Positions 4,469-56,243 of a DNA stretch of 64,000 bases are shown here, one piece after another (within the stretch, counting starts at the first letter, position 1; each line of letters starts with the position of its first letter). Source of the DNA: Mizuhopecten yessoensis (taxonomy: Eukaryota). The position numbers and the translations under genes are program-made. The DNA lies in the NCBI RefSeq assembly GCF_002113885.1, contig NW_018408827.1:1-64000 (forward strand), given 5' to 3'. A model generated the notes under the pieces. It was not told where the DNA came from. It did no database searches and saw only the letters and a program-made list of their open reading frames with translations.

Positions 4469-5040
4469 TATTTACGTTTTCTCTGCCTCTTATGTCCATT
4501 TTTTTTTTTTTTTACTTACAATTGATATTTTAAATTTATCGAAATTCCACACAATTTCGTTCAATAGTTGGAACAGCGTGGTGTCGCGTGCTGATTGCCA
4601 AACAAAGTAGTACTTTGAACTTTTAACAAACACTTCAATTTTATTCCACAATTCAGTATCAATACAATTGCGTATGATATAGCTATAGGGTGATTTAAGT
4701 TTATCAATAGAACTCTGAGCTGAAAGTTTGATTTGAAATTGTTTCGATTTTCCCCCGGAACAAATTTCGCGCATGGATAAATACAGTGATACCGTGAATC
4801 CGACCTTGCCCTCCACGAGGGAGTTATTTTGGAAGTAAAATGAGCAAAGAGAAACGTTCACTATTTTCATTAGTATGAGGTAGACTTTTTTTATTTAGCA
4901 ATGATCCCTTGACTGAAGAATCCAGACGTTAAGTTATTTGTTGACTGCAGCCTCGTTATTTGACATGTCATGAAAACGTGGCTGCTAGACGCGTGAAACT
5001 GATAGCGTTTGAATTGAGTGATCTTGCAACGGAGCACAGG

Positions 5041-8416: not shown

Positions 8417-9958
8417 TTTTAGCCTCCACCATCATCTGATGGTGGACTATTCAAATCACCCTGCGTCCGTGGTCCGTCGTCCATTAGTCCTTAAACAATT
8501 CTTGTTATCGGTATTTCTCCAGAAGTATGAGAGGGATCTTTCTCAAATTTTGAGACTGATCGGTTAAACAACATGGCCGACAGGCAGCCATCTTGGATTT
8601 TGATAGTGAAAGTTTGTTATCGCTATTTCTTGAGAAGTACTAGAGGGATCTTTCAAAAAGGTAATATATATAGGTTCCCCTTGGTACCTAGCTGTGGAGG
8701 GCAACTTTTGAGACTGATCGGATAAACAACATGACCGACAGGCAGTCACCTTGGATTTTGATAGTGAAAATTTGTTACCGCTATTTCTTGGTAAGTGCCA
8801 GAGGGATATTTCTCAAATGTTATATGCAGGTTTTCCTTGGGCCCTAGCTGTGCAGGGCAATTTTTGAGACTGATCGGATAAACAAGATGGCCGACAGGCA
8901 GCCATTTTTGATTTTGATAGTGAAAGTTTGTTATCGCTATTTCTCGGGAAGTACGGGAGGGATCTTTCTAAAATTTTACATGTAGGTTCCCTTTGTCCCC
9001 TTGTTGTGCAGCAGTACCTGAAATGGACGGTCGCCTGCTCGCCAATGAATTTAAAGTCTTGCTCGAGCGACGAAAAGTTGTCAAAAGTGAGGTAGTCACT
9101 GGCCAAACAAAAAAAGTTTTGGCGACTGACGAAAATTTAATGAATAAAAGAAATTATAGTCCCTTCCACATTAACTGGGGGCAGTACATTCGAAATATCC
9201 GTGATTTAGAAAATGTGATGATTTTTTTTCAATTTTCTATATAAATACTGCCTGGGTGTTTTCTTTGAGGTGCGAGTTTTGTGTATTTCTTTATGGGAAG
9301 ATCTGAATGGAGTTGATCATGTCAGGTTTTAACTAGAATTGAAGAATTAAAAATATAATGTTTTATTCTGTTTTACACATTACAAACATTGTCATGTTAT
9401 ATGTTATTTAAATGTGCTCAAGCATTGTGTAAGATGCTGTAGAAATATCTCTTCCCAAAATTATTTGGACCACCAATACTCGCCCAAAAAAACAAATTGG
9501 GCCAGACAATGCAGGTTACCCACTATCCTTTATTGTTCATGTTTACTTTTGAGACTGATCAGTTAAACAAAATGGCCTACCGACAGCCATCTTCGATTTT
9601 TGACATTGAAGGTTTGTTAGTACTATTTCTCAGGAATAACTTGAGGGATCTTTCTCAAATTTGATATGTAGGTTCCCCTTGATCCCTCGTTGTGCATGTT
9701 ATATTCTGAGTCTGATCATAAAAACAAAATGGCTAAAGGAAGAACTAAACAGATCTTTTTCCCATATCTCACTTTGAAGGTTGGCTTTCATACACATCAG
9801 TATTAAGTTTAGATCAAAAGTTACCTCAAGGTGCATTTACTGTTAACATGACTCGATCAAACAGATTAGAGGAAAGAAGAGAAAAGATCGAACTGACAAA
9901 GAACTAATGAAGATGGTTCAATGGCGGGCACCAAGATCCCTCTGGGATCTCTCTTGTT
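8417..9958 (+). mobile_element. Non-autonomous Helentron (HINE) with ~157-bp internal tandem repeats, interrupted by a ~0.5-kb insertion
   Basis: 5' TTTTAGC, hairpin CCACCATCA-TC-TGATGGTGG and (CGTC)n microsatellite. Repeats AACAACATGGCCGACAGGCAGCCATCTTGG start at ~8567, 8725, 8881 and ~9566. 3' hairpin AGATCCC-TCT-GGGATCT followed by CTCTTGTT. Flanks are T-rich. Confidence 0.75.
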
Positions 9959-12359: not shown

Positions 12360-15189
12360 GCCTGATTTGAGAACTTGTTGTAAGATATCGTTATGGCTAA
12401 TCTGTGAATTAGAATGTTATTATTTTACGACCAAAAGTGCTACGGCCACTTAGAAAAATATACAAGTCTCAATAGTCTCCTCAGCATTCTAGGACCAAAA
12501 GAAATGTGTTCCTTCTGAGAAATCTTGTTCGTGAAGTTGACGATGCTATTACGTTTCACTTCTTAGTGAAATATGACGTAATTTTTGTTCGACTTTGATT
12601 TAAAACCCAACAGATGTCGCGGAATAAACTAGGTACATACATTTCATCAGACATTGACGTTCTATACATCTAAGGGCATTGCTACCTTTCTGCGTCCTTC
12701 AACTCCTTTTACAAAGAGTTCTAGGTTAAAATAGCTTTGCTCAATAGAAACCCCGACACAAAATGTTACGTACACTTACAACGTAGCTTGTAACATTTCT
12801 GTTTATTGTAAACTTGAGGTAACACATACACATGTCAATGTGACGACAGCTGAAACAAAAAACACTTGAATACACAGCAATGTGTTAGAGAAATGAGATA
12901 TTATGGACATGTCTTGTAAAAAGGGAACAACAGATCATCCTTGACCATTTGAATATTGCAGATTAAATGGACACTCAATAAATTAAAGTCCTACGATTCT
13001 GCAGGGAGACCCTCACCAGTCGCCTCACTATGCGCAGACTCCGTAGCATTATAATACATATGTAGCTATAACGATAAAAAGGGCATTATTTTGAGGCGGT
13101 ATATTTTAAGGGTTGAACATAAACTATACGTTTCACATAATCATTTTCTTGTAATACAGTATAATTCTTCTTATTTTTACGATCAAAAAAGCATAGGTGT
13201 CCGTACAATGTAATTACGTCACAAAATGTGACTTAGATTGATTTGTGATCATCATTTTTGTAATTTTTACTTTGATTCATTGTTTCACGAACGGTTATTT
13301 ATTATATCAAGTTATTCATTTTCTTTTTTCATAATGTTTGCTTTGATTCATTTAGTTTCCAGACATCCAGACAATTAGGTCAATAGATGTGGTAAGATAG
13401 ACAATGAAGTAGGGGGAATAGATACATAGAAAGATAGGTGTGGGGGGGGGGGGGGGGGGAGATACAGATATATATATAATGATTTCATGGTTTGAAAAAG
13501 GGACAGTGGTCCTTACAAAGAAAGAAACCTCTTTTTTCTACAAGAAAATAGGGTAGCACATAGGTCGCCTCATACAGTTATATGTATTTCTGTACCAAGT
13601 ATTGATCTATTGGTGGTAATATACAACAAGTAATTTAGAGAATTAAAAATGGCCAATCTGTTTTACTCGTACTTTTAATCCGGGTTTAGTCGTAAGATGC
13701 CATTATCTTCCCGATATTTTTTTAATTAAAACAGAAATTAGTCGACAAATATTGCCATACTTTCTGCGGCTTATTTCTATATTTTGTTACAGTTTTTTTA
13801 ATTCTATTTCATATATTTGCTTCTCTTACCGTCGGATTCATCTTGTCCATCGTTTGGTTTTTATAGTGCTGGCATCCCACTACAAATATATCAACACGTT
13901 TGTTTCATTTCAAAATATTTTATTAAATCAATCCGATTTAATGGGAATTGGGCAACAGGCATTACGTTTGCACCAGATATCCTGCTTCACTATATATTTA
14001 ACCGGACGGGGCACTATATTATGACTGCGTAGTAACCTTGACTGACATTTTACGGACTTATTTACATTACACGGATTGATTTACAATGTGTTGGCGGTTG
14101 TGAAGTGTTCTGACAAGTTAGAGTGAGGCAATGGTGTTTATCAATAAAGTTGATGGTGTATCGCCAGTGGATACACACACATCTAGAATGTATGTAGGGC
14201 AATGTCTCTATGTGTATTTATAAAGAAACACATCTCCTATTTGCGAAATCATTTTCTATTCTTGTGTAAAAGAAAAGTACTTAAAACAACTCTTAGTCGC
14301 ACACAATATAGGTAAATATGTTGACCGTATTTAACGCAATATTCAACCAGATTTTTAGTTTTATTTCATTTTTGTTTACTATGTATATCTGTCTTATCAA
14401 AAATTTAATAATAATAAGATGTAGGACAAAACTGACAATACTTTTGTATTTTAGATTTAAATGTCAGTTGAGAAGAAAAGATAAGACTTACGATCAAGGA
14501 CATGTCTGAAGTAGATTATCATGTACTGAATGAGGATCCTCGTTAGTCCCACGCTTGTAAGAAACGCGTCAACAACACTGTCAATAACGTTAACCGGTCG
14601 ACCTAGTACCTATAAAGCCTAGAGGCTCAATACCGGTTAATTCGGGAAAAGGTAACATATGTAGTACTTAAAATCTAGCAATTGTAACAAACAATATGAC
14701 TTCAATATTAATTTCTTAGTATTAATTTTAAAGACAAATAAGTGGCGGGTTACGGCAAATATCCGTATCAATTTGAACATAAATGAAACAATTATAAAAC
14801 GTGAAAGTATTGATTTTCAAATTTAAAAATAAAATACGATAACAAGCGTGATTGTGAAAGAGGATAGCAAGCTGCTTTAAATACAGAGGAACTCTTCAAA
14901 ATAGTTCCTTTTATGTACACATCACAAGCTTTAATCTGCAACATATAGGTACAGAATGAAGATAATCTACTTGTGTGCTACATGGTATGCTGTATTTTTT
15001 TAGAATGAGGGTTCTGAACTTTTCAAAGAGATAGCAAAAACGTGTAGGATTGCATTGCTGCAGTCCTGGCAAGAAGTTATCAACGAATGTACCAAGGTTT
15101 GATAGGATACACGGTGATGAATTCTCGATCTCTCCACTGTTCTGGATTCGGTAGGAGCGCCTCCCTTCTGTTTCATAATTAGTTTAAAC

Positions 15190-15680
15190 TAGTTTGGAAT
15201 TCCGCCGTTTTCGTCTCTAGCATCACCGATGAGTCCTAGATGGACGAAACAGCTGTATGATGCAGTTACATTTTTTGAGTTTCATTTTTGACATACTGTA
15301 TCTGTTATCAAATCATTAAAGATGCTGTCACTCGTGGACTTGTTACATTCATCTTTAAAGATTCAGTGTCGTAAGCTTTGCTGGTGGATATTGTCGTAAG
15401 TCACAGTAATATCTTTTGGTAAGTGACAAGGTTCATACTACAACACTTTAGTCATTTTATTATTTGAAATTTATCAATGCATGTCTAGGCTTTAACATTC
15501 ATTTACACAATCGGGTTTTACAAACCTCCCCTTTTCTTTCAGCATTGGTTTAGACCCATTCGGATTTTAAACGTTTTGGCCCCTAGCATCATCGCCGAAA
15601 CCCAGAGGGCTAAAATAGAAGTACGGCGTAGTGTTATTCATTTCTTTAATACTGTATCTGTAATCAAGTTGCATTAACCT
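15190..15680 (+). mobile_element. Tandem ~365-bp pseudo-LTR-like unit of a Penelope-like element/retrozyme (about 1.3 copies)
   Basis: CGTTTT..CTAGCATCA at ~15206-15225 and ~15572-15591. Each is followed by ATACTGTATCTGT(T/A)ATCAA (15293 and 15649). The first copy carries the hammerhead; the second is decayed. Confidence 0.55.
15220..15263 (+). ncRNA. Minimal type I hammerhead ribozyme motif (Penelope/retrozyme type; U4C core variant)
   Basis: Stem I GCATCA (15220-25) / TGATGC (15258-63); core CCGATGA; stem II GTCC-TAGAT-GGAC; GAAA; palindromic stem III ACAGCTGT; GTA cleavage triplet, cut after 15257. Confidence 0.75.
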
Positions 15681-16109
15681 TTGTTTGTGTTGTGTCCATC
15701 TTTGAAATTATGTAAACCTGTTTACAATGGTCACAGAACAATGTTTGCCGCAGGCATAGGAGCTTTAGAGTGTGTCATATGTATATAGTCACTAAGTACG
15801 TGGACCTAGCAATGATCCATGAAAACTGCAACACTTAGGGTTTTATTCAGATGTGATTATTATTTCTACGGCCAAAAATTAATCTGTCACTCAAATATAA
15901 GTGTATTCTCTATAACAGTAATCCAGGTATTTGATGGTATGCCGAAGGCACACTGTGCTGCACTTAGTTCCTAGGCGTTAGCTATTTCATTGTTGGTACG
16001 AGAGAGGGCATTGCGATAGTGTTCCCAATAGGCAACTGAGAGGCTGGCATAGAAACTGCTGGTATAAAGATGCACCACTTTTGCTGATTATAGCTCAATG
16101 AGAAAAATA

Positions 16110-17327
16110 TGGTAGCCAGTTTACCAGAGGTGTCTGATAACATCACAACATTGGTAGAAACTGGTTTATCAGAAGTGTCTCTGAAAACATCACCACATTG
16201 GTAGAAACCGGTTTTGTAGAGGTGTCTCTGAAAACATCACCACATTGATAGTTACTGGTTTACCAGAGGTGTCTCTGAAATATCACCACATTGGTAAAAA
16301 CCGGTTAACCAGAGATGTCTCTGAAAACAACAACACACTGGTAAAAACGAGTTCATTAGAGGTGTCTCTGAAAACATCACCACATTGGTAGAAACCAGTT
16401 TACCAGAGGTGTCGCTGAAAACATCAACACACTGGTAGAAACCGGTTTACCAGGTGTGTCTCTGAAAACATCACCACACTGGTAGAAACCGGTTTAAGAA
16501 GTTTCTCTGAAAATATCACCACATTGGTAGAAACTGGTTTATCAGAAGTGTCTCTGAAAACATCACCACATTGGTAGAAACCGGTTTTGTAGAGGTGTCT
16601 CTGAAAACATCACCACATTGATAGTTACTGGTTTACCAGAGGTGTCTCTGAAAACATCAACACATTGGTAAAAACGAGTTCATTAGAGGTGTTTCTGAAA
16701 ACATCACCACATTGGTAGAAACCAGTTTACCAGAGGTGTCTCTGAAAACATCACCGCATTAGTAGAAACCGGTTTAAAAAATGTCTCTGAAAATATCACC
16801 ACATTGGTAGAAACTGGTTTATTAAAAGTGCCTTTAATAACATCACCACATTGGTAGAAACCGGTTTTTTAGAGGTGTCTCTGAAAACATTACCACATTG
16901 ATAGTTACTGGTTTACCAGAGGTGTCTCTGAAACATCACCACATTGGTAGTAACTGGTTTACCAGATGTGTCTCTGAAAACATCACCACATAGGTAAAAA
17001 CCGGTTTAACAGGGGTGTCTCTGAAACCATTACCACATTGGTGGAAACAGGTTTACCAGGTGTGTCTCTGAAAACATCACCACATTGATAGTAATCGGTT
17101 TAAGAAGTGTCTCTGAAAACATCACCACAATGGTAAAAACCGATTTACCTGAGGTGTCTCTGAAAACATCACCACATTGGTAGAAACTGGTTTATCAGAG
17201 GTGTCTGATAATATCACCACATTGGAAGAAACCGGTTTTTAAGAGGGGTCCCTGAAAACATCACCACATTGGTAGAAACTGGTTTATCAGAGGTGTCTCT
17301 GAAATAACACCACATTGGTAGAAACCG
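16110..17327. repeat. 47-bp minisatellite, ~26 copies, with higher-order structure
   Basis: Consensus GTAGAAACCGGTTTACCAGAGGTGTCTCTGAAAACATCACCACATTG. Diagnostic variant series recur from ~16154, ~16527 and ~16807. Confidence 0.95.

Positions 17328-17817: not shown

Positions 17818-17849
<32 letters not shown>
17818..17849. repeat. Poly-G tract (~32 nt)
   Basis: Uninterrupted G run; shorter runs at ~13442-13459 and ~24479-24491. Confidence 0.9.
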
Positions 17850-22150: not shown

Positions 22151-22734
22151 TAGTTCAGTGATACATTATATCTAATCTTTTGTTACTAGTTCAGTGATAC
22201 ATTATATCTAATCTTTTGTTACTAGTTCAGTGATACATTATATCTAATCTTTTGTTACTAGTTCAGTGATACATTATATCTAATCTTTTGTTACTAGTTC
22301 AGTGATACATTATATCTAATCTTTTGTTACTAGTTCAGTGATACATTATATCTAATCTTTTGTTACTAGTTCAGTGATACATTATATCTAATCTTTTGTT
22401 ACTAGTTCAGTGATACATTATATCTAATCTTTTGTTACTAGTTCAGTGATACATTATATCTAATCTTTTGTTACTAGTTCAGTGATACATTATATCTAAT
22501 CTTTTGTTACTAGTTCAGTGATACATTATATCTAATCTTTTGTTACTAGTTCAGTGATACATTATATCTAATCTTTTGTTACTAGTTCAGTGATACATTA
22601 TATCTAATCTTTTGTTACTAGTTCAGTGATACATTATATCTAATCTTTTGTTACTAGTTCAGTGATACATTATATCTAATCTTTTGTTACTAGTTCAGTG
22701 ATACATTATATCTAATCTTTTGTTACTAGTTCAG
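22151..22734. repeat. Perfect 36-bp tandem array (16 identical copies plus a partial) within older degenerate copies
   Basis: TAGTTCAGTGATACATTATATCTAATCTTTTGTTAC repeated with no visible variant. Related diverged units (TAGTTGAGGAA...) at ~21930-22150 and ~22727-22830. Confidence 0.97.
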
Positions 22735-23859: not shown

Positions 23860-26800
23860 GTAAGTGTTTTTAAACTACTTTGTCCATATTGTCTCGCATA
23901 TTAACGTGTCCCTGAATGTAACAACGTATTTGCAGTGGGTAAATAACCTTAAAGTATCAGGTAAAATATAATAAATGGATGATCCGTATATTTTTCTGCG
24001 ACTAAAACATCGTTATACAATAATAAGTTGTTATAATTTGTCTTTTTTAACAAGATTATAGATTATATTTTTATTTAATTTTTTACAATAATGCTCTACA
24101 TGTTGTCAAGACTCTTGTCATTTTCATTACTTAACATTCTTGTCATCATTTTTTTCATAATTGCAAAATAAAGAAATGACTTGAGATTTACAAGTGTATT
24201 TTCACAACATTTTCCCGCGTTATAGTTTTTACAGGGAGAAAATTCGCTTTCATTTTGTATACACACATATAAAATGTATATATACTGTGTGGATTGTCCA
24301 TGGCGAATCAATAAAGCATACTACGTCCGCTTTCGTTTCTGTATTAAAGTGATAGAACTACCACTATGTGCATCGACTGCAATCGAGGTCACCTTGCAAT
24401 GTAGTCCATTGCGGTCTATATATGCTTTCATAGTATAATGTCTGTTAATTGGCGGAGAACGAGGAGTTCGGGTTTGGAGGGGGGGGGGGGGTATTTTGAT
24501 GCATTTCCTTTATCAGCATGTGCTTTTTAAGAATTAAAGAATAATTCTACGTAAAAGCAGCTGTTCGTCACATTTTTTTCGGACACAGATGATATTGTAC
24601 CATACATTCTATTATCTAGGTTTTTTTCCATGTCTTTTAACATGTACATCTTAAACATGATGTATATTTGAAAACAAAAAAAAAGTGGTGTCGTAAAGTT
24701 TATAGAAGATAGTGGTGTAAATTCTTTATGGTGTTGTATATAACAAAATGATTTTACATGCTATATAAAATATGGTGTTGAAAGAAATTAAAAGAGGTTG
24801 GCATATGTATAATAAAGACGTTGAAAGTGCTATCAATAAAACATGGTGTCCTTTATATTATAATTGCTCACGATATTTCTATCTCATGAAAGATGATATC
24901 GAAATACATGTTCAATATTTACTGTTCGATTCGATATCAAGGAAAATATATCAAAGTAATGTTATTCAGGTAAATTAATAGTGTTAACATTATATTGGCC
25001 AGTATATACTTAATTAAACATGAACAAAACCGACAGTAACCCCCATGTCACAAGTGTTCATTAAAGCATGCATTTAACTTATGATGATTGGAACATCCCA
25101 AGCTAAGCACTCTTCTTGTCGCAGCACGTCAAACATTCTTAAAGAAAACCATAAATTACATTTCACCAGAAATGAAGACATTTAAAATTATATTTAAAAC
25201 CAAAATTAGTTTTATAAATAGGTATAGGATAATTGTAATTATTTCAATGCCATGGCTACAATGTAAAATGAACCGGAATTCTTAATATATTTACGAAAGT
25301 ATTTTCGTTGACACCTGAAATTATATGAACACTCTTGTTTTCAGTTTTTCTGTGGCCTTTGGGTTTCGCTATATAATTTGGTTCCAACCATGAAGCAACA
25401 CGAATGTGGCGCAATTACTATTTTAAAACTAAATAATTTTCATGGGAGTTGTTGGTATTATAAAATCTATATGGAGAAGTAAATCTATTCCAAATTTGAG
25501 AACTTGTCTTGAATTATGACTTGAATTAAATGATTTTTTCAGACTAACTATGTCTTAAACTTTTCTTTGCTATGAGATATTATGGGATATATTTGTGATC
25601 GTCAAAGTACATACACCATATAAAACAACACTGTTATGGTGCTAGTAATATGTCCATATTTAGTTTCAAATCTCACTCAAAGTGAAACTGTCTCGAAAAC
25701 TACAGTTATCATGTTTCTATTGTGTTTATTTCCCGCACTTTCTGACCGTTAAAAGCTTAAACAGGAGGCCTCGACTACACATTTTCTCACAAGAAATGCT
25801 TAAATAGTTGATCAAAAATAATTCTGTACATAGAACGTTGTAAATATGCATTTTCCAATGCATTGGGCATAGTGGTTTGTTTCTTTCGTCTGTATAGAAA
25901 TGACCTAAACTGTACCATTCCAACGTGGATAATTTGGACTGATACTTCAATTATAATACCAATTAGCACTGTTTATCTTTCACAACATCTCACCAGGAAG
26001 AGTTTTACCGTGGGGACAAATTCACCTCAACATTTCTGCATGTATGTGTGTTATATCTTAAAACCAGTACGGGAATGACCCCAGTACACGCGTCAGGACA
26101 TACATGTATTTCAGATCAGTAAAACAGCTCACCATGAAGATTGTGTAGTAGGCAGAGAGCTTTGCCATTTTCTTCTTTGCACATCACAGCGGTGTATGGA
26201 CTTATATCGCCTAGAGTAATAAAAGGAAAACCGGGTATGAGTATTTTATATACCAAATAAAATACCAATTTCACTCTCATCTGGCTCTGAAAGCGACCAG
26301 CATATGTCCTGACGTACATCACGTTTCGTCTATGTATATATACTGTATGCTCTGTTACAACGTGTCATGCATGCCGAAAAGGCAGATTATTCTTAAAGTA
26401 CAATAACAAAATAATTCAACAAACCATGGTATCATTATTTCACGAGGTCATTGGTTTGTTCATGATGAAAAACAAAACGTTATTTTCTAACAAATGACGG
26501 TACAATTTAAAAATAAATCGGTTCGACATTTAAAAATGAAAACTAACCATACTTTCTTGATAGCTTTTACTTTATCAAAGAGTTCGGTCCAATAAGGTCA
26601 TTTTGTGTTGTTGTTGTTGTTGTTGTTGTCGTTGTTGTAGGAAGAAGAAGAAGTGTGTGTTAGGTGGCCTTATCGGGTACAGTATTATAAAACATGAAGT
26701 GGGGTACAATGTATAGGGGTAGAAGGTGTTCATATGTAAAAACGTTGTTTCAAAACATAATCAAAGGGGATGATGGGATATTGACTAAAATGTTCAGCTC

Positions 26801-29714: not shown

Positions 29715-30130
29715 ATATGGTACTAGTATCATGACGTCATAAATGACATGACTATATAATTATGGTATTATGACGTTATCAATGACGTGATAATATATGG
29801 TATTATGACGTCTTAAATGACGTAACTATATTTGGTATTATGCTGTTATCAATGACAAGACTTTATATGGTATCATTTTGTTATTAATGAGGCGACTATA
29901 TACTGTAGTTTGTTGTTATTAATGAGATGACTTTGTATTGTGTTATGACGTCATTTATGATGTGATTATATATTGCACTATTAAAGTATTACTGGCGTTA
30001 CTTTAAATTGTATTATGATGTTATTAATGACGTAATTTTGTAATATTGGTATTACTGACGAGACATTTCTGGTTTTGGATTGTTATTGAGCTGACTATCT
30101 ATGGTATTGACTTGTTAGTACTGACGGCAA
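29715..30130. repeat. Degenerate ~35-bp tandem repeat rich in TGACGT(CA)
   Basis: Units like TATATGGTATTATGACGTCATTAATGACGTGAC; ATGACG/ATGCTG anchors at 29731, 29770, 29805 and 29840. Confidence 0.8.
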
Positions 30131-41158: not shown

Positions 41159-42670
41159 GTAATAATAATAATAATAATATACAGCATTTATATAGCGCCC
41201 TATATAATTTGTAAAATTACTCTAATATGGATAATAGTAATGGTTATAATTGTGAAAACAAACAACAAAGGCTTGCAATCACGTTCATACATTTAACAAG
41301 CAATATGAACATAATTGAACAAATAAAAGGGTGGTATTTACATGACGTCTTTGCAAAGATTCTAAAATGCAGACGTGAAAAGGTGAGTTTGTATGTCCCT
41401 CCTGAACTTGGCCAGGGTATTTGACTTCCTAATAGCAGATGGTAAACTATTCCACAACGTAGCCGAAACCCTCCCAAAGCATCTGTTTCCGTAGGTCACA
41501 GTACGAGATTTTGGGACACACAACAAAGATTCTGACTCCGACCGCAGTGATCTTGACGGCTGATACAGGGTAACAAGTTCCTGTAGGTACTGAGGAGCTG
41601 TTCCATTCAGTGCCTTGTATGTGTATACCAGAATTTTGTACTGCGACCTGTATCGTACAGGTAACCAGTGCAACGAATAAAGCGCAGGTGTGATGTGCTC
41701 TCTCTTTCGAGTACGAGTAACTAGCCGTGCTGCAGTGTTCTGAACCCTCTGCAGACGACTAGTTAGTTTGTCAGATATACCACAGAGCAGGGCGTTACCA
41801 TAATCCAACCGAGAGGTAACAAGTGAATGCACCAAAATCTTGCATGCATCTGCAGTTAGAAACTGCCGAATACAGCCGATGTTCCTGATCTGGTAGTAAC
41901 AGGATTTGGCAATAGCGTTCACTTGTTTCTCCATGTTCAGAGAACTGTCAAAGTATACCCCTAGGTTTTTAACAGCTGGAACAGTCTCAATAGTTCTGGC
42001 ACCAACCTTGAGCTGGAGAGCCATTGTTTGCTGACACTTTGGGGAAAAGACGATTAGTTCCGTCTTTTCCTGATTAAGTTTAAGCATGTTGGCGTTCATC
42101 CAGATACTGATATCTGTCAGACAAGGTTCCAGACTTTCTGAGACTGTATTCCAACTGTCCTGTGGTTTTATGACCATGTAAATGTGTGTGTCATCGGCAT
42201 AGCAATGATAGCGAAGGCTATGGCGACGACCATACAATATTTCGTGGTCCTAACACCGACTCTTGAGGAACCCCGAAATCTAGTACTTTGTCATGTGAGG
42301 TGGCAGATCCGATGGCAACACACTGTCGTCGTTCACTCAGGTATGACTGTATCCAGCATAGTGCGGTATCAGTCACTCAATAAGAGTATTCCAGACGTTT
42401 ATAAAGTATGCCATGGTCGATGACGTCAAATGCAGCTGACAAGTCCAGCATGACAAGCACCGCTCTGTCCTTGTTATCCAATGCAGAAGCTATATCACTA
42501 TGTACACGTAGGAGGGCCGTCTCAGTAGTGTCCCATGCGGTAGGCCGATTGCATGTTGTCATGGAGATGAACTTCTAAACGCCGGGATACAACCTTCTCC
42601 AAGATATTAGACTGAAAAGGCAGATTTGAAACTGGGCGGTAGTTTTTCAACTCCTCCTTGTCCATTCCAG
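41159..42670 (-). mobile_element. 5'-truncated, frameshifted L2/CR1-group LINE (RT and C-terminal region)
   Basis: NYRPVSNLPF, TETALLRV, LDLSAAFDVIDH, GVPQESVLGP, CYADDT, SRLDYGN, LQRVQNTAARLV and LHWLPV lie across three frames. The 3' end GGGCGCTATATAAATGCTGTA(TAT)n is typical of L2-clade tails. Confidence 0.92.
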
Positions 42671-45204: not shown

Positions 45205-48200
45205 ATCTCGTTCAGTTTATAACCTATCGGGATAATCCAGTATCCATACAATCGCATGGCTCTCGTACAATTTACAACTTATCAGGATAGTCCAGTATCT
45301 ATACAAACAAATCGCATGACTCTTGTTCAGTTTATTACCTATCGGGATAGTCCATTATCAATACAAATAAATCGCATGACTCTCGTACAGTTTATTATAA
45401 CCTATCGGGATAATCCAGTATCCATACTATCGCATGACTCTCGTACAGTTTATAACTTATCGGGATAGTCCAGTATCAATACAAGGAAATCCCATGACTC
45501 TCGTACAGTTTAAAACTTATCGGGATAGTCCAGTATCCATACAAAGAAATCCCATGACTCTTGTTCCGTTTATTACCTATCGGGATATTCCAGTATAAAT
45601 ACAAACAAATCCCATGACTCTCGTAAAGTTTATTATAACCTATCGGGATAGTCAAGTATCCATACAAAGAAATCCCATGACTCTTGGTCCGTTTATTACC
45701 TATCGGGATAGTCCAGTATAAATACAAGCAAATCCCATGACTCTCGTACAGTTTATTATAACCTATCGGGATAATCCAGTATCCATACAAACGCATGACT
45801 CTCGTACAGTTTATAACTTATCGGGATAGTCCAGTATCAATACAAAGAAATCCCATGACTCTCGTACAGTTTATAACTTATCGGGATAGTCAAGTATCCA
45901 TACAAAGAAATCCCATGACTCTTGTTCCGTTTATTACCTATCGGGATAGTCCAGTATAAATACAAACAAATCCCATGACTCTCGTACAGTTTATTATAAC
46001 CTATCGGGATAGTCAAGTATCCATACAATCGCATGACTTTCGTACAGTTTATAACTTATCGGGATAGTCAAGTATCCATACAAAGAAATCCCATGACTCT
46101 TGTTCCGTTTATTACCTATCGGGATAGTCCAGTATAAATACAAACAAGTTGCATGACTCTCGAACAGTTTATTATAACCTATCGGGATAGTATAACCTAT
46201 CGGGATAGTCAAGTATCAATACAATCGCACGATTCTCGTTCAGTTAATCACCTTTCGGCAATAGTCCAGTATAAATACAAAGAAATCGTATGACTTTCGT
46301 TCTGTTTATAACTTATCGGGATAGTCAAGTATCCATACAATCGCACGATTCTCGTTCAGTTCATCACCTGTCGGGAAAGTCCAGTATCCATACAAAGAAA
46401 TCGCATGACTCTCGTACAGTTTATTACCTATCTGGGTAGTCCAGTATCAATACAAAGAAATCGCATGACTCTCGTAAAGTTTTTGATCTATCGGGATAGT
46501 CCAGTATCCATACAAAGAAATCGCATGACTCTCGTACAGTTTTTTACCTATCGAGATAGTCAAGTATCTATACAAAGATATCGCATGACTCTCCTACAGT
46601 TTATGACCTATCGAGATAGTCCAGTATCTATACAAAGAAATCGCATGGCTTACGTTCAGTGTATTACCTATCAGGATAGTCCAGTATCCATAAAAAGAAA
46701 TCGCATGACTCTCGTTCTGTTTATGACTTATCAGGATAGTCAAGTATCCATACAATCGCATGACTCTCGTACAGTGTATAACTTATCGGGATAGTCCAGT
46801 ATCTATACAAAGAAATCGCATGACTCTCGTACAGTTTATTACCTATCAGGATAGTCCAGTATCCATAAAAAGAAATCGCATGACTCTCGTTCTGTTTATT
46901 ACTTATCAGGATAGTCAAGTATCCATACAATCGCATGACTCTCGTACAGTGTATAACTTATCGGGATAGTCCAGTATCTATACAAAGAAATCGCATGACT
47001 CTCGTACAGTTTATTACCTATCAGGATAGTCAAGTATCCATACAATCGCATGACTCTCGTACAGTGTATAACTTATCGGGATAGTCCAGTATCTATACAA
47101 AGAAATCGCATGACTCTCGTACAGTTTATTACCTATCAGGATAGTCAAGTATCCATACAATCGCATGACTCTCGTACAGTGTATAACTTATCGGGATAGT
47201 CCAGTATCTATACAAAGAAATCGCATGACTCTCGTACAGTTTATTACCTATCAGGATAGTCCAGTATCCATAAAAAGAAATCGCATGACTCTCGTTCTGT
47301 TTATAACTTATCAGGATAGTCAAGTATCCATACAATCGCATGACTCTCGTACAGTTTATAACTTATCGGGATGGTCCAGTATCTATACAAAGAATCGCAT
47401 GACTCTCGTACAGTTTATGACCTATCGGGATAATCCTGTATCCATACAAAGAAATCGCATGACTCTCGTTCTGTTTATAACTTGTCGGGATAGTCCAGTA
47501 TCTGTACACAGAAATTGCATGACTCTCGTACAGTTTATGACCTATCGGGATAGTCCAGTATCCATACAAAGAAATCGAATGACTCTCGTACAGTTAATGA
47601 CCTATCGGGATAATCCTGTATCCATACAAAGAAATCGCATGACTCTCGTTCTGTTTATAACTTATCGGGATAGTCAAGTATCTGTACACAGAAATTGCAT
47701 GACTCTCGTACAGTTTATGACCTATCGGGATAGTCCAGTATCCATACAAAGAAATCGCATGACTCTCGTTCTGTTTATAACTTATCGGGATAGTCAAGTA
47801 TCCATACAATCGTGTGACTCTCGTACAGTTTATAACTTGTCGGGATAGTCCAGTATCTATACACAGAAATTGCATGACTCTCGTACAGTTAATGACCTAT
47901 CGGGATAGTCCAGTATCCATACAAAGAAATCGTATGACTCTTGTTCAGTTTACATGTATGACCTATCGAGATAGTCCAGTATCTATGCACAGAAACCGCA
48001 TGACTCTCGTACAGTTAATTATAACCTATCGGGATAATCCAGTATCCATACAATTGCATGACTCTCGTACAGTTTATGACCTATCGGGATAGTCAAGTAT
48101 CTATGCAAAGAAATTGAATGACTCTCGTACAGTTTAAATCTTATCGGGATAGTCCAGTATCTATACAAAGAAATTGCATGACTCTCGTACAGTTTGTGAC

Positions 48201-49345
48201 CTACCGAGATAGTCTAGTATCTATACAAAGAAATAGAATGACTCTCGTACAGTTTATATCTTATCGGGATAATCAAGTATCCATACAAAGAAATCGCATG
48301 ACTCTCGTACAGTTTATTATAACCTATCGGGATAGTATAACCTATCGGGATAGTCAAGTATCCATACCAAGAAATCCCATGACTCTTGTTCCGTTTATTA
48401 CCTATCGGGATAGTCCTGTATCAATACAAACAAATCCCATGACTCTCGTACAGTTTATTATAACCTATCGGGATAGTCAAGTATCCATACAATCGCATGA
48501 CTCTCGTACAGTTTATAACTTATCGGGATAGCCAAGTATCCATACAAAGAAATCGCATGACTCTCGTCCAGTTTATTATAACCTATCGGGATAGTCATGT
48601 ATCCATACAATCCCATTACTCTCGTACAGTTTATAACTTATCGGGATAGGCAAGTATCCATACAAAGAAATCCCATGACTCTCGTACAGTATATAACTTA
48701 TCGGGATAGTCAAGTATCCATACAAAGAAATCCCATGACTCTTGTTCCGTTTATTACCTATCGGGATAGTCCAGTATCAATACAAACAAATCGCATGACT
48801 CTCGAACAGTTTATTATAACCTATCGGGATATTCAAGTATCAATACAATCGCACGATTCTCGTTCAGTTAATCACCTATCGGGATAGTCCAGTATCCATA
48901 CAAAGAAATCGTATGACTCTCGTTCTGTTTATAGCTTATCGGGATAGTCAAGTATCCATACAATCGCATGACTCTCGTACAGTTTATAACTTATCGTGAA
49001 AGTCCAGTATCTATACAAAGAAATCGCATGACTCTCGTACAGTTTATTATCTATCTGGATAGTCCAGTATCTATACAAAGAAATTGCATGACTCTCGTAC
49101 AGTTTATGACCTACCGAGATAGTCCAGTATCTATACAAAGAAATAGAATGACTCTCGTACAGTTTATATCTTATCGGGACAGTCCAGTATTTATACAAAG
49201 AAGTAGAATGACTCTCGTACAGTTTATATCTTATCGGGACAGTCCAGTATCTATACAAAGAAATAGAAAGACTCTCGTACAGTTTATGACCTATAGGGAT
49301 ATTCCAGTATCCAAACAAAGAAATCGCACGACTCTCGTACAGTTT
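45205..49345. repeat. Intronic 60-bp minisatellite, ~70 copies (55- and 63-bp variants)
   Basis: Consensus ATGACTCTCGTACAGTTTATAACTTATCGGGATAGTCCAGTATCCATACAAAGAAATCGC. It is the source of the many MTLVQFITYRDSPVSIQRNR ORFs. Confidence 0.97.
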
Positions 49346-50356
49346 TTAACATTTCAATGATTGGATTTTTGAAGTGCACCAAAACACAAGAAGGTTACCT
49401 GATATATGAGACTGGGTTTTTTAAAATCAGCGATTTTATCATAAAACAACAGGGTAATACTTTTTAATTCGAAAATCAGAGCGAAGTGAAGTTTTAAATG
49501 ATAACGCTTGACATTAAACCAAAAGTTTTGAGTTGGTTTTTAAAAAATTGATATTTGAGAACACATATTTAAAAATATTCTCTTACAGTTTATAACTAAT
49601 CGGGAAAGTCGAGTATCAATACAAAGAAATCCCACGATTCTCGTTCAGATTATGACCTATCGGGATAGTCCAGTATCAATACAAAGAAATCGCATGACTC
49701 TCGTACAGTTCCTGACCTATCGGGTTAGTCCAGTATCCATACAAAGAAATCGCATGACTCTCCTACAGTTTATGACCTATCGAGATAGTCCAGTATCTAT
49801 ACAAAGAAATCGCATGGCTTACGTTCAGTGTATTACCTATCAGGATAGTCCAGTATCCATAAAAAGAAATCGCATGACTCTCGTTCTGTTTATGCCTTAT
49901 CGGGATAGTCCAGTATTCATACAAAGAAATTGCATGACTCTCGTACAGTTTATGACCTATCGGGATAGTCAAGTATCTATACAAAGAAATCCCATGACTC
50001 TCAAACAGTTTATGACCTTTCGGGATAGTCAAGTATCTATACACAGAAACCTCATGACTCTCGTACAGTTTATGACCTATCGGTCCAGTATCCATACAAA
50101 GAAATCGCAGGACTCTTGTAGTTTTTAACATTTCAAGGATTGGATTTTTGAAGTGCACCAAAACACAAGAAGATTACCTCATATATGATACTGTTTTTTT
50201 TCTTTCTAATCAGTGATTTAATCATATAACAACAAGGTAATGCTTTTTAAATTCGAAAATCAAAGCGAAGTGAAGTTTTAAATGATAACGCTTGACATTA
50301 AACCAAAAGTTTTGAGTTGGTCTTTAAAAAATGATATTTGAGAACACATATTTAAA
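49340..50356. repeat. ~235-bp non-satellite block duplicated (49340-49575 and 50120-50356) around a second 60-bp sub-array (~9 copies, 49580-50125)
   Basis: GTTTTTAACATTTCAA(T/G)GATTGGATTTTTGAAGTGCACCAAAACACAAGAAG...GATATTTGAGAACACATATTTAAAAA occurs twice. Confidence 0.92.
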
Positions 50357-52352: not shown

Positions 52353-52713
52353 TCTCTACTTTTTACACAAGATGGAAGGAACATTGCACATGTCATTGAC
52401 TAAAGGGAAGTAACTCGGAAAAACGTCTTGTCAACTGGTGGTGGCATATTTCTATATTTCTGTGATCGATAACGAGTTACATATGTCAGCATATACTCTA
52501 AAAGATGTCGACATAATCTGCACATATGTCAGCATATTCTCATAATATGTCGACAAAAAACAAATCCGTGACAATTTCGCAGAGATATGTATTTCTTTCT
52601 GTAACTCATTTCACGTTTGAAGATTATAAAAAAATCCTGATTTATCGATTCTTAGTTTACAAGAAAGATGTAGATATTAATGGTTGTGTATGTTTCGATT
52701 TTCCTTTTTGAAG

Positions 52714-53394
52714 GTTGAACTACTGAACAAACGAAAGAAACACTTTTGTGGAGGGACACTGATTGCGCCCTACTGGGTTCTCACTGCGGCTCACTGTATA
52801 CGTAAACGAGGGAAAACACGGAAGATAATTGTGCGCGTGGGCGAGCATGACGTCACAAAATTGGAAAAGACAGAAAAAGACTACACTGTTTCCAAATATT
52901 TCCCTCATCCTTCATTTAGTTATAAAGCTGTAATGAATGACATAGCATTATTAAAATTGAATACGCCTGTAAGAACTTCTAATATCAGCGGATATGCGTG
53001 CCTTCCGGTGAAATCCAAAAGACTTTCAAGTAGGACTATTTGCAAGACCATTGGCTGGGGTCGAACACAAAGCAAGAGTTTGACAGGGAGTGACGTATTG
53101 AAAGAAGCAGACGTGCCGATAGTCAAGAAAAGAAAATGTCAAAAAGCTTTTGATTTTACTATAACTCGATCACAGCTTTGCGCCGGGTACAAACGAGGAG
53201 GAATAGACTCTTGTATCGGCGACAGTGGAGGGCCACTACTGTGTCCTTTTGTATCTAACAGTAACGACACACGCTGGTATGTTAACGGTGTCACCAGTTA
53301 TGGTGAAGGTTGTGGAGAAAAGGGAAAATTCGGAATTTATACAAATGTTTTAAAGTATATGCATTGGATTCAAAAAATCATTTTTAAGAAGTAA
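52714..53394 (+). CDS. TSP1-serine protease exon 4: trypsin-type (S1A) catalytic domain
   Basis: Acceptor TTCCTTTTTGAAG|GTT (phase 0, WPWQ|VEL). Motifs HFCGGTLI, LTAAHC, NDIALL, DSCIGDSGGP and GVTSYGEGCG are present; stop TAA at 53394. AATAAA at ~53844. Spliced total 1473 nt, about 490 aa. Confidence 0.96.
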   Translation, partial: VELLNKRKKHFCGGTLIAPYWVLTAAHCIRKRGKTRKIIVRVGEHDVTKLEKTEKDYTVSKYFPHPSFSYKAVMNDIALLKLNTPVRTSNISGYACLPVKSKRLSSRTICKTIGWGRTQSKSLTGSDVLKEADVPIVKKRKCQKAFDFTITRSQLCAGYKRGGIDSCIGDSGGPLLCPFVSNSNDTRWYVNGVTSYGEGCGEKGKFGIYTNVLKYMHWIQKIIFKK

Positions 53395-55442: not shown

Positions 55443-56015
55443 GTAATCGTATGTATACATGTCTGTGCGTACATTAGTGTACAGTAATCGTATGTATACA
55501 TGTATGGGCTACATTAGCGTACAGTAATCGTATGTATACATGTCTGTGCGTACATTAGTGTACAGTAATCGTATGTATACATGTCTGTGCGTACATTAGT
55601 GTATAGTAATCGTATGTATACATGTCTGGGCGTACATTAGTGTACAGTAATCGTATGTATACATGTCTGTGCGTACATTAGTGTACAGTAATCGTATGTA
55701 TACATGTCTGTGCGTACATTAGTGTACAGTAATCGTATGTATACATGTATGGGCCACATTAGCGTACAGTAATCGTATGTATACATGTCTGGGCGTACAT
55801 TTGTGTATAGTAATCGTATGTATACATGTCTGGGCGTACATTAGTGAACAGTAATCGTATGTATACATGCCTGGGCGTACATTAGTGTACAGTAATCGTA
55901 TGTATGCATGTCTGGGCGTACATTAGTGTACAGTAATCGTATGTATACATGTATGGGCCACATTAGCGTACAGTAATCGTATGTATACATGTCTGGGCGT
56001 ACATTAGTGTACAGT
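55443..56015. repeat. 41-bp minisatellite, ~14 copies
   Basis: GTAATCGTATGTATACATGTCTG(T/G)GCGTACATTAGTGTACA; contains the palindrome ATGTATACAT. Confidence 0.97.
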
Positions 56016-56243
56016 ATTAGCCGTAGTTGCGTTAATCACAGGCGTGAGGTCGCACCTAAACAAAACACACACAAAAAATAAGAACTTGAGCAAGGCAAAT
56101 GCATATGGTTATATTATTGCAAAATGTCAAAAATACATCTGTGTGTATATATATAGTAAATACATTCTCATTTGAAAACAAAATTAAGAATTTGCAAAGT
56201 AAATTTCAACAAATTAAATGCACAAAATTTGTTAAGATTTCTT

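What the first reader, a model, noticed from the sequence alone, without database searches (positions are those of the whole stretch)
15220..15263. Hidden minimal hammerhead ribozyme
Seen: 44 nt that fold exactly as a type I hammerhead. It has a 6-bp stem I (GCAUCA/UGAUGC), CCGAUGA, a 4-bp stem II with a 5-nt loop, GAAA, a tiny palindromic stem III (ACAGCUGU) and a GUA cleavage triplet. Established: such minimal hammerheads with a palindromic stem III occur in the pseudo-LTRs of Penelope-like elements and in retrozymes, and are reported to cleave best as dimers. The core has C instead of U at position 4 (CUGAUGA is canonical), so this copy may be slow or inactive. Neither the ORF track nor gene annotation would show it.
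Basis: partly seen in the sequence, partly recalled or inferred. Interest (0 to 1): 0.7.

Follow-up and report, generated by a model that had tools for sequence, protein, structure and literature searches.

The report
Fossil retrozyme with variant hammerhead core
This is a real hammerhead ribozyme motif inside an old, decayed copy of a short non-coding repeat scattered through this animal genome, likely a retrozyme (a parasite that spreads through self-cut RNA circles), and its unusual core base is shared by most of the family rather than being damage to this copy.

Summary
Observation confirmed: 15220-15263 (+) is a type I hammerhead (Rfam RF00163, 29.8 bits, E 4e-4), the only such motif in the window. 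It is not a Penelope-type 'minimal' hammerhead and not a lone motif. It has the canonical animal 6-bp/4-bp/palindromic-stem-III build and lies in a ~550-bp insertion (15157-15707), about 1.5 head-to-tail units of a 366-386-bp ORF-free repeat with well over a thousand dispersed, ~18%-diverged copies. That matches the non-LTR retrozymes described in mussels. C4 is the family's ancestral state: 73 C, 20 T, 8 other, 9 gaps in 110 copies picked by flank motifs. The T copies are matched by G5>A (22), as CpG decay predicts, and form no lineage. 'C4U repair' is therefore the wrong frame. The second hammerhead here (15586-15629) is degenerate (27/44), so this locus could make neither a cis dimer nor a circle. 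Genomic copies decay almost neutrally. C4 is a known natural variant and recurs in phage hammerheads. Cleavage and expression are untested. Verdict: a new, fossil member of a known kind.

The parts
15157..15707 (+). Whole insertion: about 1.5 head-to-tail units of the retrozyme-like repeat, 5'-truncated, ending at the family's usual 3' end
   Evidence: Local alignment to the family majority sequence, blocks 15157-15707, 77.5% identity outside the two hammerheads; blastn pieces 15163-15362, 15341-15392, 15402-15710
15220..15263 (+). Hammerhead 1, type I, intact stems, 43/44 identical to the family majority (the one difference is in loop II)
15226..15232 (+). Core CCGAUGA; 15227 is C4 (U4 in most hammerheads), the family's ancestral state
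15249..15256 (+). Palindromic stem III ACAGCUGU (2 bp plus a palindromic tetraloop as monomer, 8-bp duplex as dimer)
   Evidence: Sequence; energies; sister family has AUGGCCAU
15257..15258 (+). Predicted scissile bond, after GUA
   Evidence: Position in the Rfam alignment; cleavage not tested
15258..15623 (+). Predicted unit-length RNA between the two cut sites (366 nt); could not be released now because hammerhead 2 is degenerate
   Evidence: Spacing 15220 to 15586
15266..15275 (+). 10-bp insertion private to this copy, just after stem I
   Evidence: Alignment columns and blocks
15312..15402 (+). Head-to-tail junction: the 3' end of unit 1 runs into the start of unit 2 at about 15357
15586..15629 (+). 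Hammerhead 2, degenerate (27/44 to the family majority; core and stems broken)

Best explanation
The motif is a type I hammerhead inside an old, 5'-truncated, 1.5-unit copy of a non-coding 366-386-bp repeat family that is likely a non-LTR retrozyme, and the family was amplified with C at core position 4. Shown: hammerhead anatomy; family membership; head-to-tail unit; no ORF; clustered 3' ends and scattered 5' ends; star-like old burst; C4 ancestral; near-neutral decay; degenerate second hammerhead; same locus present in four other data sets. Inferred from the published retrozyme model: source arrays were transcribed through successive units; each hammerhead cut after GUA, helped by stem-III dimerisation; unit-length RNAs were closed by a host RtcB-type ligase; a Penelope-type reverse transcriptase/endonuclease primed about 85-90 nt downstream of the cut site and copied less or more than one round into new sites. 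C4 would have slowed but not abolished cutting. This locus is most likely a fossil: if transcribed it could at most cut once, slowly.
For: Family: 1717 first-look candidates, the 39 best other loci 72-83% identical; 915-1443 contigs per run lay on the hammerhead region at >=80%. Unit: majority sequence repeats at 386 bp; 18 of 117 loci cross the unit junction vs 0 of 123 reverse-complement controls; longest open frames 49 aa (+) and 74 aa (-); GC 35.8%. Ends: 51 of 114 3' ends fall in offsets +120..+139, 5' ends spread over 20 bins, none above 10. A young Penelope family of this genome ends 73-74 nt after its own hammerhead in 8 of 9 loci. C4: 73 C/20 T/6 A/2 G/9 gaps in 110 flank-picked copies, G5>A in 22; T>C background 5.4%; T4 copies need 23 changes on the tree vs 22.1 shuffled. 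Sister family with U4 and a ~361-bp unit swaps the stem III palindrome; 5 of 24 rows change both sides at two stem III pairs. Mussel retrozymes: ~5000 type I hammerheads in two families, 350-390-bp repeats, kobs ~0.1/min, abundant circRNA (PMC7229834). U4C viroid variant is slow in vitro yet infectious (PMC3088659). C4 cores with full stems in unrelated contigs: 11 of 15 loci hit Rfam hammerhead models.
Against: No cleavage, RNA or circle was observed. No target-site duplications (3 of 51 with >=8 nt vs 1.9% control). Most copies are shorter than one unit; no young intact array of this family was seen. The window's unit folds no better than shuffles (z -0.07) and the majority sequence only modestly (z -2.1, 60 shuffles). 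No pile-up of 5' ends at the cut site (12 events, p 0.21). No homology to the one Penelope family tested, so the mobiliser is inferred. A deep mutational scan found low activity for single mutants of the CUGA turn (PMC9901934). Whole-structure covariation is weak (11 of 500 shuffles reach the score) and reflects two lineages.
Confidence: 0.8

Rival explanations
1. The repeat is the pseudo-LTR/3' end of an old autonomous Penelope-like element; the copies are 5'-truncated ends and hammerhead cutting was dispensable, which let C4 drift in.
For: Fixed 3' end and variable 5' truncation, as in Penelope elements; similar hammerhead-to-end distance in a local Penelope family; a 2026 preprint finds Xenopus retrozymes derive from pLTRs (10.64898/2026.07.22.740005); one locus (L014) has a GIY-YIG frame next to the repeat. 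No 5'-end pile-up at the cut site.
Against: Copies that reach the unit start run into another unit (6 of 13 pass the strict junction test) and none into a shared coding frame. Of 56 ORFs >=110 aa from the 153 loci then held, 1 is GIY-YIG and 0 are RT. L014's frame is on the opposite strand, ~110 bp away, and belongs to a much younger family (92-97% identity, 1525 candidates) with a different hammerhead; about one such neighbour is expected by chance (my arithmetic). The hammerhead lacks the min-HHR build. This rival and the best explanation overlap on origin: a pLTR ancestor is not excluded.
Confidence: 0.1
2. This copy's hammerhead has been kept by selection (or refreshed by gene conversion) and acts in cis on a host transcript.
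For: 43/44 to the family majority while the rest of the insertion is 77.5% (binomial P 1.8e-4); none of 110 flank-picked copies reaches 43 (best 42 in 4); no variant inside it in four data sets; among hammerhead-intact copies C4>T (25/84) exceeds G5>A (6/84).
Against: It was noticed because it is intact; 0.3-19 such copies are expected by chance for 1700-6000 copies. Only 4 variant sites in 1401 bp, so the polymorphism test has no power. No host exon was identified nearby (96 frames >=62 aa in 1-40 kb scanned with Pfam, 1 weak DUF hit). It keeps C4 rather than U4. The C4>T excess is absent in flank-picked copies (20 vs 22).
Confidence: 0.07
3. The family is an ordinary SINE/MITE-like or satellite-derived repeat carrying a dead hammerhead that played no part in its spread.
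For: C4 is expected to be slow; the core is no more conserved than the rest of the motif among genomic copies (83.6% vs 83.8%); pieces of the unit seed minisatellites.
Against: The majority sequence has all three stems and every other core base perfect, which needs selection on the source elements. The sister family keeps the structure with different letters. Neutral decay of inserted copies is expected under any model.
Confidence: 0.03

Closest known systems
Metazoan non-LTR retrozymes, especially those of the mussel Mytilus galloprovincialis (Cervera and de la Pena 2020, PMC7229834)
   Same: Type I hammerhead in a non-coding unit of 350-390 bp, GC under 50%, thousands of copies, two sister hammerhead families, coexisting Penelope elements
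   Different: Here the copies are old (median 82% to the majority), mostly sub-unit fragments; the dominant family has C4; no intact dimer, circRNA or cleavage shown. The mussel hammerhead sequences (their Fig. 3D and S4) could not be seen, so sequence kinship and the mussel position 4 are untested.
Minimal hammerheads of Penelope-like pseudo-LTRs (Cervera and de la Pena 2014, PMC4209133; Lunse et al. 2017, seen only as cited in PMC6765202)
   Same: Type I, palindromic stem III suited to dimer cleavage, hammerhead close to the element's 3' end, partial tandems, 5' truncation
   Different: Helix I 6 bp and helix II 4 bp with no extra base at 9/10.1; no RT-EN frame; no homology to the local Penelope family tested
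Natural U4C hammerheads (viroid variant, Ambros and Flores 1998 as cited in PMC3088659; CYGANGA descriptor in PMC13481778)
   Same: C at core position 4 with otherwise intact core
   Different: Here C4 is the majority state of a large genomic retroelement family rather than a rare variant
Rfam Hammerhead_1 (RF00163)
   Same: Full-length model match, 29.8 bits
   Different: Below the gathering score of 34, so standard annotation misses it

Membership tests
Hammerhead ribozyme, type I | Three helices around C3-A9, G12-A14, A15.1-U16.1, H17, with stem I open | tested here: met
   one core deviation (C4), a known natural variant
Hammerhead ribozyme, type I | Rfam RF00163 gathering score (34 bits) | tested here: not met
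   29.8 bits, E 4.2e-4
Hammerhead ribozyme, type I | Self-cleavage after NUH | not testable with these tools
   Needs in vitro transcription
Non-LTR retrozyme | Canonical type I hammerhead (6-bp helix I, 4-bp helix II, short palindromic helix III) | tested here: met
   against the definition in PMC4209133
Non-LTR retrozyme | Head-to-tail units of 150-450 bp, one hammerhead each | tested here: met
   386-bp period; 366-bp spacing here; 18 of 117 loci cross the junction vs 0 of 123 controls
Non-LTR retrozyme | No protein-coding frame; GC under 50% | tested here: met
   Longest frames 49 and 74 aa; GC 35.8%
Non-LTR retrozyme | No LTR, primer-binding site or polypurine tract | not tested
   Not searched for specifically; the unit structure shows no LTR-bounded interior
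Non-LTR retrozyme | Target-site duplications longer than 4 bp 'when present' | tested here: inconclusive
   3 of 51 with >=8 nt vs 1.9% control; copies ~18% diverged
Non-LTR retrozyme | Highly self-paired unit RNA | tested here: inconclusive
   Circular fold z -2.1 for the majority sequence, -0.07 for the window unit
Non-LTR retrozyme | Expressed as circular RNA | not testable with these tools
   No RNA holder listed
Active non-LTR retrozyme (criterion of Li et al. 2026 preprint) | Two consecutive units with complete hammerheads | tested here: not met
   Hammerhead 2 is 27/44 with broken core; criterion read
Penelope pseudo-LTR minimal hammerhead | Helix II 7-8 bp, helix I 4-5 bp, extra base between 9 and 10.1 | tested here: not met
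Penelope pseudo-LTR minimal hammerhead | Flanks an RT plus GIY-YIG frame | tested here: not met
   No hit of 33 local Penelope frames in the window or unit; 2 of 123 family loci have a separate Penelope piece nearby; nearest RT fragment is 26 kb away

The most novel reading that the evidence does not exclude
A retrozyme lineage spread to thousands of sites because, not in spite, of an attenuated C4 core: slow cutting still released unit RNAs from long transcripts but kept the circles from re-opening. The C4 family far outnumbers its U4 sister in this genome, so the pair would be a natural test of how retrozyme circles avoid cutting themselves, a question left open in PMC7229834.
Probability: 0.15. 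Interest if true: 0.6.

Novelty: new member of a known kind. Interest (0 to 1): 0.3.

Why it matters
As a single locus it matters little: it is one fossil among thousands. The family is a modest addition. It shows that a retroelement can be amplified widely with a core base that standard CUGANGA descriptors and the Rfam cut-off reject, so surveys may undercount such families. The same genome holds a U4 sister family, which gives a matched pair for asking how much cleavage a retrozyme needs and how its circles stay closed. The clustered 3' end about 85-90 nt after the cut site is a testable hint at where a Penelope-type enzyme primes.

Tried and rejected
C4 as decay of this copy: rejected. T4 copies as a sub-lineage: rejected (23 changes vs 22.1 shuffled; flank identity 0.820 vs 0.828; 94 rows, duplicates and short rows left out). 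Selection on the core across genomic copies: not seen (hammerhead 83.8% vs flanks 81.9%, p 0.015; core 83.6%; intact core in 10 of 110; the smaller set left out L117 and other duplicates and gave p 0.10). 5' ends piling up at the cut site as a trace of in vivo cleavage: suggested by the first 21 loci, not supported by 111 (p 0.21). L014 as a joint Penelope-retrozyme insertion: rejected as likely chance. Target-site duplications: not detected. L203's 98.8% duplicate as a young array: it lies across an N gap, likely an assembly duplicate. Summed contig depth of 9,000-33,000 at the hammerhead vs 4-14 in the flanks is not used as a copy number. Expression: no RNA holder listed. Rfam RF00163 search of the genome gave 3 matches from 74 scored candidates, too shallow to count. 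Earlier findings: three look-ups, none shown. Literature: 'hammerhead + U4C' gave 1 paper, '+ CCGAUGA' 1 unrelated paper (listing only), '+ CCGANGA' 0, a variant search 3; none describes a C4 retrozyme family. Lunse 2017 and Ambros 1998 were not held, and the supplement of PMC7229834 and bioRxiv supplements could not be read; these may already show C4 in mollusc retrozymes. The host taxon was not determined.

Full report
1. The observation. Rfam Hammerhead_1 aligns over its whole model at 29.8 bits, E 4.2e-4, under the gathering score of 34, which is why a standard scan of the window returns nothing. A fixed-length descriptor matches once in 64 kb and never in 100 shuffles. Stems I and II form in the isolated 44-mer; stem III is not stable within one molecule but its palindrome forms a -11.1 kcal/mol duplex between two. 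With native flanks the predicted fold is a different one.

2. The surroundings. The window is AT-rich animal DNA with several satellites. No host exon was identified near the motif: 93 frames of 62 aa or more in 1-40 kb gave one weak DUF hit and 3 longer ones none. A search of the own genome with 15100-15700 gave 1717 first-look candidates, of which 40 were scored; the 39 best other loci are 72-83% identical. Contigs of four other runs, from four studies, lay 915-1443 records each on the hammerhead region at 80% or more. The same runs cover the window locus with 4 variant sites in 1401 bp, none in the hammerhead, and no empty-site joint among those shown. So this is an old insertion of a large dispersed family.

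3. The element. A majority sequence from 123 loci repeats with a period of 386 bp. The window copy runs 15157-15707, about 1.5 units, with a second hammerhead at 15586-15629 that keeps 27 of 44 bases. Of 117 loci, 18 cross the unit junction, against 0 of 123 reverse-complement controls, and the unit has no frame over 74 aa. Of 114 well-aligned loci, 51 end at offsets +120 to +139 from the hammerhead start, about 85-90 nt after the cut site, while 5' ends are scattered (the loci were found by searches near the hammerhead, and local alignment ends are fuzzy). Median identity to the majority is 82% and the tree is star-like, 68 of 91 inner branches open. Target-site duplications were not detected. 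These features match the non-LTR retrozymes of PMC7229834 (parts 2-4 of 6 read: results and discussion): mussel repeats of 350-390 bp, about 5000 type I hammerheads in two families, slow cleavage, abundant circles, RtcB ligation, Penelope elements as likely mobilisers. A 2026 preprint (parts 1-3 of 5 read) ties vertebrate retrozymes to Penelope pseudo-LTRs, calls an element active only with two complete consecutive hammerheads, and saw cleavage in 1 of 9 dimers tested. By the definitions in PMC4209133 (parts 1-2 of 4 read) this motif is a canonical animal type I hammerhead, not a Penelope 'minimal' one.

4. Penelope link. Of 56 frames of 110 aa or more from the 153 loci then held, one (L014) is a GIY-YIG endonuclease and none an RT. 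It belongs to a young Penelope family (92-97% identity, 1525 candidates) with its own CUGAAGA hammerhead 73-74 nt before its 3' end in 8 of 9 loci checked. It lies on the opposite strand about 110 bp from the repeat and shares no sequence with the unit; 2 of 123 family loci have such a neighbour, about what chance gives by my arithmetic. The similar hammerhead-to-end distance is suggestive; the mobiliser remains inferred.

5. Position 4. Exact 34-place patterns find 39 copies with C4 and 15 with T4; freeing both CpG sites gives 84 copies with C 57, T 25, A 1, G 1 (counted by hand). To avoid selecting on the ribozyme I gathered 161 distinct loci by four flank motifs; 110 span the hammerhead and read C 73, T 20, A 6, G 2, gap 9 at position 4 and G 69, A 22 at position 5. 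Equal C>T and G>A is the mark of CpG decay from an ancestral CG; T>C occurs at only 5.4% of sites. T4 copies are not clustered on the tree. So the source elements carried C4. One result runs against a purely neutral reading: among hammerhead-intact copies C4>T (25/84) exceeds G5>A (6/84), unlike the flank-picked set (Fisher p 0.004 against the first 34); I cannot explain this. C4 itself is not new: PMC3088659 (section 8 and passages) cites a U4C viroid that cleaves poorly in vitro but stays infectious; PMC13481778 (passages) uses a CYGANGA descriptor; PMC9901934 (passages) finds low activity for mutants of the CUGA turn. I found C4 cores in 11 viral and 4 metagenome stretches, 11 of these 15 with Rfam hammerhead hits and most with full stems, against more than 124 viral stretches with U4.

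6. Selection and covariation. Genomic copies decay almost evenly: hammerhead 83.8%, near flanks 81.9%, ten core bases 83.6%; 10 of 110 keep an intact core. The window copy's 43/44 is a tail case (P 1.8e-4 at its own 77.5%), with 0.3-19 such copies expected in the genome, and it was picked for being intact. A rarer sister family has U4 (8 of 9 matches), a unit of about 361 bp and the palindrome AUGGCCAU in stem III. On 24 hand-picked rows, two stem III pairs change on both sides in 5 rows each; the whole-structure score is reached by 11 of 500 shuffles, and it reflects two lineages rather than many events.

7. Mechanism and verdict. Most likely (0.8) a decayed non-LTR retrozyme copy: source arrays were transcribed, cut after GUA, circularised and copied by a Penelope-type enzyme starting at a preferred site, all inferred from the published model. 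This locus has one intact, probably slow hammerhead and a degenerate partner, so it cannot yield a unit RNA. Rivals are an autonomous Penelope end (0.1), a co-opted copy (0.07) and a passenger dead ribozyme (0.03). It is a new member of a known kind. The one point of note is that a large family was amplified with C4; my searches found no report of that, but the mussel figures and supplements and Lunse 2017 could not be seen and may contain it. Interest 0.3.

Noticed in passing
L144 (G000:C4628, about 696680-696960): A 48-bp minisatellite of about six units made from this family's hammerhead (core changed), followed by a 47-bp array made from the unit's 3' part; its joint has depth 263 in run X14.
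   Followed up: partly
L147, L148, L153 (23-bp arrays); L004, L065, L085, L118, L045, L096: Pieces of the retrozyme unit repeatedly seed tandem arrays of 23-84 bp, including 23-bp arrays from the 3' half of the hammerhead.
   Followed up: no
L209:4077-4120 and 4552-4595; L193, L189, L196, L199, L206: Sister family with canonical U4, stem III palindrome AUGGCCAU and a unit of about 361 bp.
   Followed up: partly
L155-L178, L014:773-1357 (-): Young, high-copy Penelope family with a C-terminal GIY-YIG domain, a CUGAAGA hammerhead in its 3' end and (TA)n-flanked ends; L167 and L169 hold further hammerheads with AGGCCU and AGCGCU stem III.
   Followed up: partly
L214-L228: Type I and type III hammerheads with a C4 core and full stems in unrelated viral and metagenome contigs.
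   Followed up: partly
window 52681-53394 (+): A nearly whole trypsin-like protease domain in one open frame (Pfam Trypsin E 1e-58), probably a large terminal exon.
   Followed up: no
window 41362-42249 (-): Reverse transcriptase fragment (RVT_1, E 3e-5), not hit by the local Penelope frames tested.
   Followed up: partly
window 16119-17327, 45206-50120, 22151-22734, 55443-56016, 8544-8995, 29726-30033: Tandem arrays with periods 47, 60, 36 (100% identical, 16 copies), 41, 156 and 35 bp; a run of 32 G at 17818-17849.
   Followed up: no
window 24530-24760 (-): Weak DUF6768 hit (E 6e-5, below cut-off).
   Followed up: no
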